A DNA stretch of 64,000 nt from contig CAMCHI010000004.1 in the NCBI GenBank assembly GCA_945874735.1, forward strand, positions 508-64,507. Direction: 5' to 3'. Source of the stretch: an uncultured Arcanobacterium sp. (lineage in GTDB: Bacteria > Actinomycetota > Actinomycetes > Actinomycetales > Actinomycetaceae). Shown one piece after another: positions 24,200 to 27,417 of this stretch. The notes under the pieces were generated by a model. It saw only the letters and a list, made by a program, of their open reading frames with translations, did no database searches and was not told where the DNA came from. How positions within the stretch are numbered: the first letter of the stretch is position 1; each line of letters begins with the position of its first letter. A program made the translations under genes and the position numbers.

Positions 24200-24841
24200 G
24201 TGTTAGCTAAGGTAAAACGAGTCATTAATAAGGTGTTTCGTTCCCGTATAAATAAGGCTTTACAAAGAAAGTTAGTTAAAAAAGATATTACTTTAATTGC
24301 CAGTAACTGTAACGGGGCTTTTATTTTACATGATTTAGAGTTACGTTTTAATTCTCCGTACGTAAATTTGTATGTTTTACCTGGAGATTTTGTAAAACTT
24401 TTATCTAACTTGGAATACTATTATCAGCAGGAATTAGAGTTTCTTCCGGAAAGTTCTAATACTTTAGGTAACTATCCGATTGGTAGATTAGCTGATGTGG
24501 AAATTCATTTTATGCATTATGAAAATGAAGCAGAAGCACGTCAGAAGTGGTATCAAAGATTGGAAAGGCAAGATCTTAGCAATCTCTTTATCATGATGAC
24601 CGAAAGAGACGGTTGCACTTATCAAGATCTAGTGAACTTCGATAATTTGCCTTTTGCTAATAAAGTAGTGTTTACCCATAAGCCTTATCCGGAGTTGTCC
24701 TCAGCCTACTATATAAAAGGGTTTGAAAACGCAGGTGAAGTAGGTAATTTGTTTGATTACTGTGGTTTTTTGGGCAAGAAGTATTATGATCAGTTCGACT
24801 ATGTGACATGGTTTAATCAAGGAATAAACGGTCAGCAATAA
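24200..24841 (+). CDS. DUF1919-family protein (often found in capsule/EPS loci)
   Basis: ITLIASNCNGAFILHDLELRFNSPYVNL and EIHFMHY...A..KW..R motifs; AGGAG SD; AT-rich. Confidence 0.8.
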   Translation: MLAKVKRVINKVFRSRINKALQRKLVKKDITLIASNCNGAFILHDLELRFNSPYVNLYVLPGDFVKLLSNLEYYYQQELEFLPESSNTLGNYPIGRLADVEIHFMHYENEAEARQKWYQRLERQDLSNLFIMMTERDGCTYQDLVNFDNLPFANKVVFTHKPYPELSSAYYIKGFENAGEVGNLFDYCGFLGKKYYDQFDYVTWFNQGINGQQ

Positions 24842-24987: not shown

Positions 24988-25527
24988 GTGCAATTAACTG
25001 CTGGTATTATCGGGGCAGCACATGGATTAAAAGGTGAAGTGAAGTTAGATGTGCGTACAGATATTCCTGCCCAGCGTTTTTATGTAGGGGCATTACTGGA
25101 AACAGATCCGGCAGAAGTAGGCCCTTTAGAGATTGAAAAAGTTAGAGAATATAAAGGTTTTACTTACGTTAAATTTGTGCAGATTAATGATCGCACTACG
25201 GCTGAAGCATTGCGAGGTGTGAAGCTGGTAGTTGAATCAGATGAGGTAGAAACTGAACCAGAGGCTTGGTATCCGCATGAGCTAATTGGTTTAGAGGCTT
25301 TAGATCCAGATGGGTATGAACTGGGAATAGTTAGTGGTTTACAGCCTATGCCGATGCAGGATTTATTGCTTGTTACCGAACCAGATGGGCGAGTAGTGCA
25401 AGTGCCGTTTGTAAAAGAAATTGTTACTGAAGTAGACATTGATGATAATTGTGTAGTTATTGATGCTCCTCCAGGGTTGTTTTGTGAAGATGAGTTGATA
25501 ATTAGCCCTGAAACACACAGCGAGTGA
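24988..25527 (+). CDS. rimM: Ribosome maturation factor RimM
   Basis: GIIGAAHGLKGEV; PRC-barrel with QVPFVKEIV. Confidence 0.95.
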   Translation: MQLTAGIIGAAHGLKGEVKLDVRTDIPAQRFYVGALLETDPAEVGPLEIEKVREYKGFTYVKFVQINDRTTAEALRGVKLVVESDEVETEPEAWYPHELIGLEALDPDGYELGIVSGLQPMPMQDLLLVTEPDGRVVQVPFVKEIVTEVDIDDNCVVIDAPPGLFCEDELIISPETHSE

Positions 25528-25571: not shown

Positions 25572-26927
25572 ATGAGATTTGATATTATCACTATTTTCCC
25601 AGAATTTTTTACGGCTTTAGATGTTTCTTTAGTGGGTAAAGCCCGGCAAAACGGTTTAATTGCATTAGATGTGCATGATTTACGTGCTTGGGCTAATGAT
25701 GTGCACCGCACCGTAGACGATACTCCTTTTGGAGGTGGAGCCGGTATGGTGATGAAACCAGAAATATGGGCACAAGCTATTGATGCACAGTTAGTATCCC
25801 ACCCTCAGCGCACAGTATTAGCTATTCCTACTCCTGCTGGAAAACCCTTAAAACAAGCTGATTTAGGGAAGTTGGCTAGTTATGAGCAGATAATTTTAGC
25901 GTGCGGAAGATATGAAGGGATTGACGCCCGTATAGCTACTTACTATCAGGAAGCCGGTTTAGAGGTACTAGAATTTTCTTTAGGTGATTATGTACTAAAC
26001 GGGGGAGAAGTAGCGGCTTTAGCTTTAATAGAGGGAGTGGCGCGCTTAATTCCAGGCATGATGGGTAATCCGGAGTCGTTAGCTGAAGAATCGCATGGTG
26101 AATCTGGATTGTTGGAGTACCCAGTTTTTACTCGTCCAGCTCAGTTCCGAGGTATCGGAGTGCCGGAGGTATTAACTTCCGGTAATCATCAAGCTATTGC
26201 TAGTTGGCGCAGAGCTCAATCTTTGACTCGTACTGTAACTAGACGTCCCGATTTAATGGTACGTGTACAAACAGCAGGTTTGGCCGAAAATGATTTGGCT
26301 GTATTGGCTAAGCACGACTGGTTTAGTGGGCAACAGGCTGGTCAGATAGGTAAAGTGACTTTCCGATTAACGCTATTAGAAGAGATAGAAGATCAGAGAG
26401 AAGCGGAAATAGGTATCGCGACAACTCAGGCAGATACTAACTTTTTATATCAGGCAATATTGGAAAACGGGAATGTAATTGCTCAAGCTTGTTTAACAGC
26501 GCAGATTTTGCTGGTTAATGCGGATGCACTTCCCTTAAAAGCAGGGGAGTTGCTTTGGGTAATAAAAGAATTCGAGATAGTAAAAAGTTGGTATAGTAGA
26601 GCGCTTTTCCAAAGTTTCTATGTTAAATTGGTGCAGTTTTTAAACCATGCGGATTTAATGGGTGGTGAAGTGACTACGGATTGCTCTACGCAATTAGAAG
26701 AAACCGCTGAGGTGGGCAGGGTGTTGAGTGCTTTATATGAAACAAAACCTATAGCGGGAGTAGTATTAACATTACCTAAAATCGAACGTACCCAAATTAA
26801 AGATTTGCAAAAACTAGGATTTAGAAAAATTGCCCGAGAACTTATTGTAGAAGTGAATGGCTATGCCGTAGGTGAGGAGTCCAACAGCTATTTAACTATG
26901 TTTTTGCCATTAAATATGGCAGAATAG
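25572..26927 (+). CDS. trmD: tRNA (guanine37-N1)-methyltransferase TrmD with ~200-aa C-terminal extension
   Basis: VDDTPFGGGAGMVMK, CGRYEGID, SLGDYVLNGGE, LLEYPVFTRP; extra domain after about residue 250. Confidence 0.95.
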   Translation: MRFDIITIFPEFFTALDVSLVGKARQNGLIALDVHDLRAWANDVHRTVDDTPFGGGAGMVMKPEIWAQAIDAQLVSHPQRTVLAIPTPAGKPLKQADLGKLASYEQIILACGRYEGIDARIATYYQEAGLEVLEFSLGDYVLNGGEVAALALIEGVARLIPGMMGNPESLAEESHGESGLLEYPVFTRPAQFRGIGVPEVLTSGNHQAIASWRRAQSLTRTVTRRPDLMVRVQTAGLAENDLAVLAKHDWFSGQQAGQIGKVTFRLTLLEEIEDQREAEIGIATTQADTNFLYQAILENGNVIAQACLTAQILLVNADALPLKAGELLWVIKEFEIVKSWYSRALFQSFYVKLVQFLNHADLMGGEVTTDCSTQLEETAEVGRVLSALYETKPIAGVVLTLPKIERTQIKDLQKLGFRKIARELIVEVNGYAVGEESNSYLTMFLPLNMAE

Positions 26928-27066: not shown

Positions 27067-27417
27067 ATGGAGATTCTAGATAAAGTAGTAGCTCCGCAAC
27101 TAAAGGAGCGTCCACAGTTCCGCGCTGGCGATACCGTTAAGGTAAGCGTAAAGGTTGTGGAAGGTAACCGTCATCGTATCCAGGTGTTCCAGGGCGTAGT
27201 TATTGCACGCCGTGGCGGTAATGGGGTAAGTGCTACCTTCACTGTGCGTAAGCACTCGTTCGGAGTAGGCGTAGAGCGTACTTTCCCACTACATTCTCCA
27301 AATGTAGATGCGATTGAAGTAGTTACCCGTGGTGATGTACGTCGTGCAAAGCTATACTACTTGCGTGATCGTTACGGCAAGGCTGCTAAGATTAAGGAAA
27401 AGCGTGTAGATCGCTAA
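27067..27417 (+). CDS. rplS: 50S ribosomal protein L19
   Basis: FRAGDTVKV...QVFQGVVI...GVGVERTFP...[10 protein letters not shown]. Confidence 0.98.

What the first reader, a model, noticed from the sequence alone, without database searches (positions are those of the whole stretch)
26320..26927. TrmD fused to a degenerate GNAT-like domain
TrmD normally ends at about 250 aa; this ORF continues about 200 aa without a stop. The tail has GNAT-like order: FLYQAILE (beta2), VIAQACL (beta3), WVIKEFEIVKSWYSRALFQSFYVKLVQFL (motif A position), GVVLTL (beta5), QIKDLQKLGFRKI (motif B, KLGF), YLTMFLPL. The acetyl-CoA loop Q/RxxGxG/A appears replaced by WYSRALF, so it may be catalytically dead or repurposed, for example as an acyl-CoA sensor or tRNA-binding module on an essential tRNA methyltransferase. 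The fold call is inference.
Basis: partly seen in the sequence, partly recalled or inferred. Interest (0 to 1): 0.6.

Follow-up and report, generated by a model that had tools for sequence, protein, structure and literature searches.

The report
TrmD with a decayed GNAT tail
This Arcanobacterium makes its essential tRNA methyltransferase TrmD with a C-terminal acetyltransferase (GNAT) domain, as almost all Actinomycetaceae do, but its copy has lost every catalytic residue and is probably an inactive, still-folded remnant.

Summary
ORF 25572-26927 (+) encodes 451 aa: a full TrmD followed by about 200 further residues without a stop, set between rimM and rplS.

The tail is not strain-specific read-through. 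In a sample of 150 same-family genomes, about 130 match a TrmD+GNAT profile end to end. Two further families of the order carry the same fusion. Databases call these proteins only "TrmD", and I found no paper on the fusion.

The relatives' GNAT belongs to the PaiA / LcGNAT subclass (polyamine and canavanine acetyltransferases): PDB 8OSP E 1.6e-24, 1TIQ E 1.3e-21.

The window's tail is a strongly decayed orthologue:
- No Pfam hit.
- hhalign against the relatives' tails gives E 1e-5 (score 39.8; best of 40 shuffles 18).
- The AlphaFold2 model has a GNAT fold (Z 10-11.5).
- All three residues shown by mutagenesis to matter in LcGNAT are replaced (W329, F334, L412).
- Both P-loop glycines are gone.
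- About 31 aa of alpha1-alpha2 are deleted and about 27 aa are inserted.
- The tail evolves about three times faster, relative to the TrmD core, than most intact tails.
- It is still an open frame (P about 2e-7).

Best reading: an inactive pseudo-GNAT kept as an appendage of TrmD. Other lineages decayed the same way. The scan has noted TrmD-GNAT fusions before on other DNA. Moderate interest.

The parts
25572..26927 (+). Whole trmD ORF, 451 aa plus stop (P0001)
25572..26267 (+). TrmD (SPOUT m1G37 methyltransferase) catalytic core and C-terminal helical domain, residues 1-232
   Evidence: NF000648 290.7 bits (cut-off 220), TIGR00088 240.7 bits (cut-off 195), PF01746 E 1.1e-55. 58-67% identical to relatives' cores.
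26268..26342 (+). Conserved extension and linker, residues 233-257. A helix (239-247) and a short strand (250-253) sit on the GNAT sheet in the model. The segment is also kept in relatives that lack the GNAT.
   Evidence: Invariant L237, D241, L245 and nearly invariant G249, W250; models; short TrmDs of G118, G056 and family f14 keep this segment.
26343..26924 (+). Decayed GNAT domain (pseudo-GNAT), residues 258-451
   Evidence: No Pfam hit. hhalign against relatives' tails: E 1.1e-5, score 39.8 against shuffled maximum 18. AlphaFold2 pLDDT 75, pTM 0.74. Foldseek and VIA-align top hits are all GNATs, Z 10-11.5. ESM features nearest GNAT clusters, 0.94.
26376..26438 (+). Remnant of alpha1-alpha2 (residues 269-289). 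About 31 residues are missing relative to the family consensus, including the conserved TFPDACPP block. Low model confidence.
   Evidence: Alignment A1; pLDDT 52-63.
26550..26609 (+). beta4 and degenerate P-loop (residues 327-346). W329 takes the place of the general-base Glu, F334 the place of the first catalytic Tyr, and the P-loop reads YSRALF.
   Evidence: catalytic residues from PMC10416765
26643..26723 (+). Lineage-specific insertion of about 27 aa between alpha3 and beta5 (residues 358-384). Modelled partly as an extra helix. Acidic.
   Evidence: Alignment A1 columns 441-468, present only in the window; pLDDT below 50 at 361-373.
26775..26822 (+). alpha4 / motif B remnant (residues 402-417). 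The nearly invariant Asn is E405, the catalytic Tyr is L412, and the G416-F417 end is kept.
26889..26924 (+). Last strand and C-terminus (residues 440-451). This is the segment best conserved with orthologues (shared PLNMA-type end).
24988..25527 (+). rimM, upstream operon neighbour
   Evidence: ORF list. The name is my reading of the translation and the usual rimM-trmD-rplS order; it was not scanned.
27067..27417 (+). rplS (ribosomal protein L19), downstream neighbour
   Evidence: ORF list. The name is my reading of the translation; it was not scanned.

Best explanation
The gene encodes a normal, presumably active TrmD (m1G37 tRNA methyltransferase) carrying an evolutionary relic of a C-terminal GNAT domain. 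The ancestor of the Actinomycetaceae already had TrmD fused to a PaiA/LcGNAT-type acetyltransferase, and most members still have it intact. In this small (1.5 Mb), low-GC Arcanobacterium lineage the acetyltransferase function was given up. The general-base Glu and both catalytic Tyr are replaced (W329, F334, L412). Both P-loop glycines are gone. Most of the acceptor-side helices alpha1-alpha2 are deleted, and about 27 residues are inserted after alpha3. The beta-sheet core and the two main helices still fold as a GNAT, and the frame is kept open. The tail therefore persists as a non-catalytic (pseudoenzyme) appendage, most likely because it is physically part of an essential protein, for folding, stability or packing against the conserved linker. 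Shown: the fusion, the orthology, the residue losses, the accelerated rate and the open frame. Inferred: loss of activity, the structural reason for retention, and polyamine/basic-amino-acid acetylation as the ancestral activity.
For: - Fusion is the family norm. Ten of eleven relatives' TrmDs carry a Pfam Acetyltransf_1 hit at E up to 0.04, seven of them above the gathering score. About 130 of 150 family genomes match the TrmD+GNAT profile over positions 1 to about 453. The same fusion occurs in families f17 and f19.
- Orthology of the window's tail. Same gene, same position, shared C-terminal end. hhalign E 1.1e-5, score 39.8, against shuffled mean 12.7, sd 2.0, maximum 18.
- Fold. AlphaFold2 pLDDT 75, pTM 0.74. 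Every listed Foldseek hit is a GNAT-fold protein at probability 1.0. VIA-align Z 10-11.5, rmsd about 3 A, 120-150 residues aligned. ESM features nearest GNAT clusters.
- Subclass. The relatives' profile hits 8OSP at 1.6e-24 and PaiA 1TIQ at 1.3e-21; the next hit outside the subclass is 1.6e-5.
- Catalytic residues. E92, Y97 and Y142 of LcGNAT are needed for activity by mutagenesis (PMC10416765). The window has W, F and L at these positions; out-group genera have E, Y, Y.
- Indels are visible in alignment A1.
- Rate. The terminal-branch ratio tail/core is 7.8, against 1.4-3.0 in most intact tails.
- Still coding. 0 stops in 193 codons, P about 2e-7.
- The activity was not moved elsewhere. No other PaiA-like gene is in the genome, which is 99.8% complete.
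Against: - No biochemical data exist for any TrmD-GNAT fusion.
- The AlphaFold2 model used an alignment of only 12 orthologues, so the fold call is partly guided by them.
- The N-terminal third of the tail (259-324) is not aligned by hhalign.
- A degenerate P-loop is normal in this subclass, so that feature alone proves nothing.
- No close relative of this species is available, so purifying selection on the tail (dN/dS) could not be measured.
- The open frame, and the repeated retention of long decayed tails in other lineages, could equally mean that the tail has gained a real non-catalytic function.
Confidence: 0.65

Rival explanations
1. Repurposed pseudo-GNAT: the tail no longer transfers acyl groups but still binds a ligand (polyamine, basic amino acid, CoA or acyl-CoA) or a partner, and so modulates TrmD.
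For: The frame is kept open despite about 3 substitutions per site. At least five lineages keep decayed tails of roughly 140-240 aa, and only two of those inspected truncated. The tail is more acidic than the relatives' tails (pI 4.8, net -9), which would suit a cationic ligand.
Against: The acceptor-side helices alpha1-alpha2 are mostly deleted and the pyrophosphate loop has lost both glycines, so both classical binding sites are damaged. The decayed tails of different lineages share no new conserved motif. No binding test was possible.
Confidence: 0.2
2. The tail is still an active acyltransferase that uses a different catalytic set or substrate.
For: The GNAT core fold, the conserved Lys332 and the G416-F417 end are kept. 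Some GNATs work without a general base. The whole genus already has Tyr in place of the general-base Glu.
Against: All three validated catalytic positions are changed to residues that cannot donate or abstract a proton. Y97F alone already lowers LcGNAT activity. The P-loop glycines and alpha1-alpha2 are lost. No Pfam GNAT model matches even at E 10. The evolutionary rate is about three times that of most intact tails.
Confidence: 0.08
3. The tail is an extra tRNA-binding module for TrmD.
For: It is tethered to the tRNA-binding C-terminal domain of TrmD. Some GNATs act on tRNA; TmcA, AtaT and TacT appear among the structural neighbours.
Against: The tail is acidic (pI 4.8, net -9). Its closest sequence relatives are small-molecule acetyltransferases, not tRNA-acting GNATs. 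The structural neighbours are generic for the fold.
Confidence: 0.04
4. Artefact: a lost stop codon, mis-assembly, or chance open frame after a normal TrmD.
For: Only one sequence of this protein exists in the 5.8-billion-protein collection.
Against: Orthologues across the family have the same fused frame. The tail is homologous to theirs up to the shared C-terminus. The chance of an open frame of this length is about 2e-7.
Confidence: 0.02

Closest known systems
TrmD-GNAT fusion proteins of Actinomycetaceae (deposited only as 'tRNA (guanosine(37)-N1)-methyltransferase TrmD', e.g. Arcanobacterium wilhelmae, A. hippocoleae, Actinobaculum sp.; Pfam PF01746 + PF00583)
   Same: Same gene, same operon position, same domain order, same linker and C-terminal end. 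The TrmD core is 58-67% identical.
   Different: Their GNAT is detectable by Pfam and keeps both catalytic Tyr and a Gly-containing P-loop; genera outside Arcanobacterium also keep the general-base Glu. The window's tail is 12-29% identical to theirs, lacks all three catalytic residues, and has a deletion of about 31 aa and an insertion of about 27 aa.
LcGNAT, canavanine N-acetyltransferase of Lactobacillus curiae (PDB 8OSP; PMC10416765)
   Same: It is the best solved match of the relatives' GNAT profile (E 1.6e-24 over the full length). It shares the subclass features: no classical P-loop, a C-terminal beta7, and catalytic Glu/Tyr/Tyr.
   Different: It is a stand-alone 174-aa enzyme associated with a guanidine riboswitch. 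The window's tail has W, F and L at its E92, Y97 and Y142 positions.
PaiA, N1-spermidine/spermine acetyltransferase of Bacillus subtilis (PDB 1TIQ; Forouhar et al. 2005, as cited in PMC11808394 and PMC10416765)
   Same: It is the second-best solved match of the relatives' profile (E 1.3e-21, full length).
   Different: It is a stand-alone monomeric enzyme. The relatives score only 37-44 bits against the NCBIfam PaiA equivalog (cut-off 250), so they are not PaiA orthologues. The window's tail does not match at all.
Canonical stand-alone TrmD (about 230-290 aa; TIGR00088 / NF000648)
   Same: The N-terminal 232 residues are a full-length equivalog match in the usual rimM-trmD-rplS context.
   Different: It has about 200 additional C-terminal residues.
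Non-catalytic GNAT domains kept inside larger proteins, such as the N-terminal GNAT domain of mycothiol synthase MshD (from memory, not tested here)
   Same: A GNAT fold is retained without the catalytic apparatus as a structural part of a larger protein.
   Different: In MshD the dead domain pairs with an active GNAT domain in the same chain. Here the partner is an unrelated SPOUT methyltransferase. This is only an analogy.

Membership tests
TrmD (tRNA (guanosine37-N1)-methyltransferase) | Full-length match to the curated equivalog models above their cut-offs | tested here: met
   NF000648 290.7 bits (cut-off 220), residues 1-229 on profile 1-221/221. TIGR00088 240.7 bits (cut-off 195). PF01746 E 1.1e-55.
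TrmD (tRNA (guanosine37-N1)-methyltransferase) | Conserved core motifs shared with orthologues, and the rimM-trmD-rplS context | tested here: met
   About 90 of the 97 invariant columns in the 12-sequence alignment lie within residues 1-250. The flanking ORFs read as RimM and L19.
TrmD (tRNA (guanosine37-N1)-methyltransferase) | m1G37 methyltransferase activity | not testable with these tools
   Needs an enzyme assay. A single match per genome was found in G000, so this is the only copy.
GNAT superfamily (fold level) | Match to a Pfam GNAT-clan HMM | tested here: not met
   No family for residues 241-451 even at E up to 10. The relatives' tail profile does not pick up the tail in a whole-genome search at E up to 0.01.
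GNAT superfamily (fold level) | Homology to bona fide GNAT domains by profile comparison | tested here: met
   hhalign against 10 orthologous GNAT tails: E 1.1e-5, probability 82%, residues 324-451. Score 39.8 against shuffled maximum 18 and reversed 11.
GNAT superfamily (fold level) | Mixed alpha/beta GNAT topology (beta1-alpha1-alpha2-beta2-beta3-beta4-alpha3-beta5-alpha4-beta6/7) | tested here: met
   Predicted model only: pLDDT 75. Every listed Foldseek hit is a GNAT-fold protein (probability 1.0). VIA-align Z 10-11.5, rmsd about 3 A. alpha1-alpha2 is reduced to about 21 residues.
GNAT superfamily (fold level) | Acetyl-CoA pyrophosphate loop Q/R-x-x-G-x-G/A | tested here: not met
   The loop reads Y-S-R-A-L-F. 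Out-group relatives have Q/H-G-x-G-x-A/S. Caveat: this loop is already degenerate in the PaiA/LcGNAT subclass.
PaiA / LcGNAT-type small-molecule acetyltransferase subclass | Catalytic Glu92, Tyr97 and Tyr142 (LcGNAT numbering; mutagenesis in PMC10416765) | tested here: not met
   The window has W329, F334 and L412. Out-group genera have E/Y/Y and other Arcanobacterium have Y/Y/Y.
PaiA / LcGNAT-type small-molecule acetyltransferase subclass | Full-length sequence similarity to solved members | tested here: inconclusive
   Met for the relatives' profile (8OSP 1.6e-24, 1TIQ 1.3e-21). The window's tail is linked to the subclass only through those orthologues. The relatives themselves fall far below the NCBIfam PaiA equivalog cut-off.
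PaiA / LcGNAT-type small-molecule acetyltransferase subclass | Acetyl-CoA-dependent acetylation of a polyamine or basic amino acid | not testable with these tools
   Needs an enzyme assay, both for the window's protein and for an intact orthologue.

The most novel reading that the evidence does not exclude
The decayed GNAT is not junk but a selected non-catalytic module of TrmD, for example an acidic polyamine- or cation-binding or stabilising domain. That would explain why several Actinomycetaceae lineages independently keep decayed tails of roughly 140-240 aa instead of truncating. By extension, the intact GNAT in the rest of the family would be functionally coupled to m1G37 methylation, for example polyamine or antimetabolite acetylation linked to translation fidelity.
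Probability: 0.2. Interest if true: 0.6.

Novelty: new variant of a known kind. Interest (0 to 1): 0.35.

Why it matters
TrmD is essential, is a validated antibiotic target, and is normally a stand-alone enzyme. An entire family of host-associated actinobacteria makes it as a fusion with a PaiA/LcGNAT-type acetyltransferase. That architecture sits in databases under the bare name "TrmD", and I found no paper on it.

This window adds a natural experiment: a lineage in which the acetyltransferase has been inactivated but the domain is kept. If the tail is needed for TrmD folding or activity, it would reveal structural coupling between the two halves. If it can be removed, it is simply a slowly eroding relic in a shrinking genome.

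The practical point holds either way. Annotation pipelines should not transfer an acetyltransferase function to this protein, and TrmD length is not a sign of mis-assembly in this family.

Tried and rejected
- A Pfam scan of the tail at E up to 10 found nothing.
- A word-seeded search of 5.8 billion proteins with residues 250-451 returned only the protein itself. The tail is too diverged for that method; this is not evidence that it stands alone.
- I searched the window's own genome with the relatives' GNAT profile to see whether the activity had moved to a separate gene. It found only one weak unrelated GNAT (E 5e-4).
- I looked for a link between tail decay and polyamine genes. Spermidine synthase (PF01564) was found above cut-off in none of five Arcanobacterium genomes. 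potA (TIGR01187) was below cut-off, with similar scores, in all five. This is uninformative.
- A tRNA-binding role is disfavoured by the acidic charge.
- Literature searches for TrmD with GNAT or acetyltransferase fusions found no relevant paper.
- dN/dS on the tail was not possible, because no close relative of this species is in the collections.
- Complex prediction was not used. No binding claim is made, and a TrmD dimer would pass by likeness to solved structures.
- No single-sequence fold was run. The language-model feature search served as the alignment-free check instead.

Full report
**What is in the sequence.** Window 25572..26927 (+) is one uninterrupted ORF of 451 codons. It lies between an ORF that reads as RimM (24988-25527) and one that reads as ribosomal protein L19 (27067-27417), which is the usual rimM-trmD-rplS arrangement. 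Residues 1-229 and 1-232 are full-length matches to the two curated TrmD equivalog models: NF000648 at 290.7 bits (cut-off 220) and TIGR00088 at 240.7 bits (cut-off 195). Pfam PF01746 also matches at E 1.1e-55. The remaining 200 or so residues match no Pfam family even at E 10. The tail frame has no stop in 193 codons, whereas the other five frames of the same DNA have 7-27. From base composition the chance of that is about 2e-7, and none of 5000 shuffles stayed open.

**The fusion is the family norm.**
- A search of 40 related genomes found long open frames at trmD in all 24 genomes of the same family sampled there; several other families of the order have TrmD frames of 240-320 aa.
- Ten of eleven relatives' proteins carry a Pfam Acetyltransf_1 hit behind TrmD (E from 3e-18 to 0.04), and seven of these are above the gathering score.
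- With a profile of the full-length alignment (A1), about 130 of 150 sampled family genomes from 40 genera match from position 1 to about 453 of 456.
- The same fusion occurs in two further families of the order (f17, f19). Family f14 and others have short TrmDs.
- Named records place the closest relatives in Arcanobacterium, and hence the family as Actinomycetaceae. Public annotation calls these 440-510-aa proteins simply "TrmD", although PF00583 is precomputed on many of them.
- Full-text searches found no paper describing a TrmD-GNAT fusion.
- Earlier notes of this scan record TrmD-GNAT fusions in many other genomes, including several of this same actinobacterial type. I treat those as leads only.

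**What kind of GNAT it is.** A profile of ten intact tails (A2) hits three solved structures far better than any others. These are 8OSP (E 1.6e-24), 1TIQ, which is B. subtilis PaiA (E 1.3e-21), and 4E2A (E 4e-14). All three match over the full domain, and the next hit (RimI) is at 1.6e-5.
- 8OSP is LcGNAT, a canavanine-selective N-acetyltransferase of the polyamine-acetyltransferase subclass.
- Mutagenesis there showed that Glu92, Tyr97 and Tyr142 are needed for activity. The authors also note that a degenerate P-loop is normal for this subclass (PMC10416765).
- PaiA is a spermidine/spermine N1-acetyltransferase (Forouhar et al. 2005, as cited in PMC11808394).
- The relatives score only 37-44 bits against the NCBIfam PaiA equivalog (cut-off 250), so they belong to the subclass but are not PaiA orthologues.
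- In 1.84 billion representative proteins, the closest relatives of the tail profile are mostly stand-alone proteins of 170-200 aa, plus about 20 fused ones of 424-538 aa.
- The substrate of the fused domain is unknown. A small cationic amine is an inference from these neighbours.

**The window's tail is a decayed orthologue.** In alignment A1 the tail lines up with the relatives' GNAT from the linker to a shared C-terminal end. Against the profile of relatives' tails, built without the window, hhalign gives E 1.1e-5 and score 39.8 over residues 324-451. Forty shuffles of the tail gave a mean of 12.7, sd 2.0 and maximum 18, and the reversed sequence gave 11.2. The differences from the consensus are:
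- **alpha1-alpha2.** About 31 residues are missing, including the conserved TFPDACPP block. These helices form the acceptor side of GNAT active sites.
- **Insertion.** About 27 residues (358-384) are inserted between alpha3 and beta5.
- **P-loop.** It reads YSRALF, where out-group genera have Q/H-G-x-G-x-A/S.
- **Catalytic positions.** The three validated positions read W329, F334 and L412. Out-group genera have E/Y/Y and the other Arcanobacterium species have Y/Y/Y.
- **Other conserved positions.** The nearly invariant Asn of alpha4 is Glu405. Lys332 and the G416-F417 end are kept.

**Fold.** An AlphaFold2 model of residues 228-451, built on the 12-row orthologue alignment, has mean pLDDT 75 and pTM 0.74. 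Its elements are beta1 (258-268), a stub of alpha1/2, beta2 (290-297), beta3 (302-312), beta4 (327-336), alpha3 (343-359), an extra helix (372-391), beta5 (394-402), alpha4 (406-414) and a final strand (440-446).
- Every listed Foldseek hit against the PDB is a GNAT-fold protein at probability 1.0.
- VIA-align gives Z 10-11.5, rmsd about 3 A and 120-150 aligned residues, again only GNAT-fold proteins.
- Because the alignment guides the model, I also used an alignment-free check. Language-model features of residues 259-451 sit nearest GNAT clusters (0.94; all ten of the best hits that carry a family share a GNAT family or clan), with the caveats printed by that tool.
- The full-length model (pLDDT 73, pTM 0.54) shows the same elements and gives no confident inter-domain arrangement.

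**Evolutionary behaviour.** On the TrmD-core topology, the window's terminal branch is 0.39 substitutions per site for the core and 3.05 for the tail, a ratio of 7.8. A second Arcanobacterium genome (G010), whose tail is also invisible to Pfam, has 7.2. Most intact tails have 1.4-3.0. The pair G015/G011, which has a Tyr at a P-loop Gly position, has 5-7.
- The window and G010 have different indels and are not sisters in the core tree. Their decays are probably independent, although branch support was not computed.
- Elsewhere in the family, genus g37 (four genomes, 399-449 aa), g51 (491 aa) and G140 (393 aa) keep long tails that the profile no longer recognises.
- G118 (278 aa) and G056 (292 aa) have truncated to a short TrmD.
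- The apparent misses in g34 and g38 are intact GNATs behind a long linker.
- The window's genome, which is 99.8% complete, has no other PaiA-like gene, so the activity was lost rather than relocated.

**Interpretation.** The best-supported reading is a catalytically inactive pseudo-GNAT retained as an appendage of an essential enzyme.
- Loss of activity is inferred from the replacement of all three validated catalytic residues, the loss of the P-loop glycines and the deletion in the acceptor-side helices. It has not been measured.
- Retention is shown by the open frame and the preserved core pattern.
- The reason for retention is inference. A structural role fits the conserved linker helix and strand (239-253), which packs on the GNAT sheet in the models and survives even in relatives without the GNAT.
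- A repurposed ligand-binding role cannot be excluded and is the main rival. The tail is unusually acidic (pI 4.8, net -9).
- An artefact is effectively excluded.

**Limits.**
- No close relative exists for a dN/dS test.
- The N-terminal third of the tail is linked to GNAT only by position, by MAFFT alignment and by the model.
- Counts from genome samples are samples of related genomes, not independent events.
- The link I looked for between tail decay and polyamine genes was uninformative.

**Verdict.** The fusion itself is a widespread, database-visible but unstudied architecture. This window's contribution is a clear case of its decay into a pseudo-enzyme domain. Interest is moderate.

Noticed in passing
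Relatives L002, L003, L005-L008 (Arcanobacterium TrmD-GNAT), column of window residue 329: All Arcanobacterium species with an otherwise intact GNAT have Tyr in place of the general-base Glu (E92 of LcGNAT), which other Actinomycetaceae genera keep. The genus as a whole may have altered or weakened activity.
   Followed up: partly
L002 (G015) and L003 (G011), P-loop position 4: These two species have Tyr at a P-loop Gly position and a tail/core rate ratio of 5-7. This looks like an earlier stage of the decay seen in the window.
   Followed up: partly
L084-L089, L093 (genera g37 and g51, and G140); L091, L092: Other Actinomycetaceae lineages keep long TrmD tails (393-491 aa proteins) that the TrmD+GNAT profile no longer recognises. 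Two lineages have truncated to 278-292 aa. This suggests repeated, probably independent decay.
   Followed up: partly
window 25785-25810 region (TrmD residues about 72-80) and the same site in L005, L007, L008: A surface loop of the TrmD core is a hotspot for insertions of 9-20 aa in relatives. These insertions split BLAST matches in many genomes of the genus.
   Followed up: no
window 24200-24841: An AT-rich stretch (GC 0.32-0.37, against about 0.43 for the flanks) with a 213-aa ORF sits just upstream of rimM.
   Followed up: no
L096, L097, L100 (family f14): Short TrmDs of a neighbouring family end with the same conserved helix-plus-GW segment that precedes the GNAT in the fusions. This segment therefore belongs to the actinobacterial TrmD rather than to the GNAT.
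   Followed up: no
G000, G001, G006, G010, G015 whole genomes: No spermidine synthase (PF01564) was found above cut-off in any of five Arcanobacterium genomes. If the fused GNAT acts on polyamines, these would have to be imported or made by another route.
   Followed up: no
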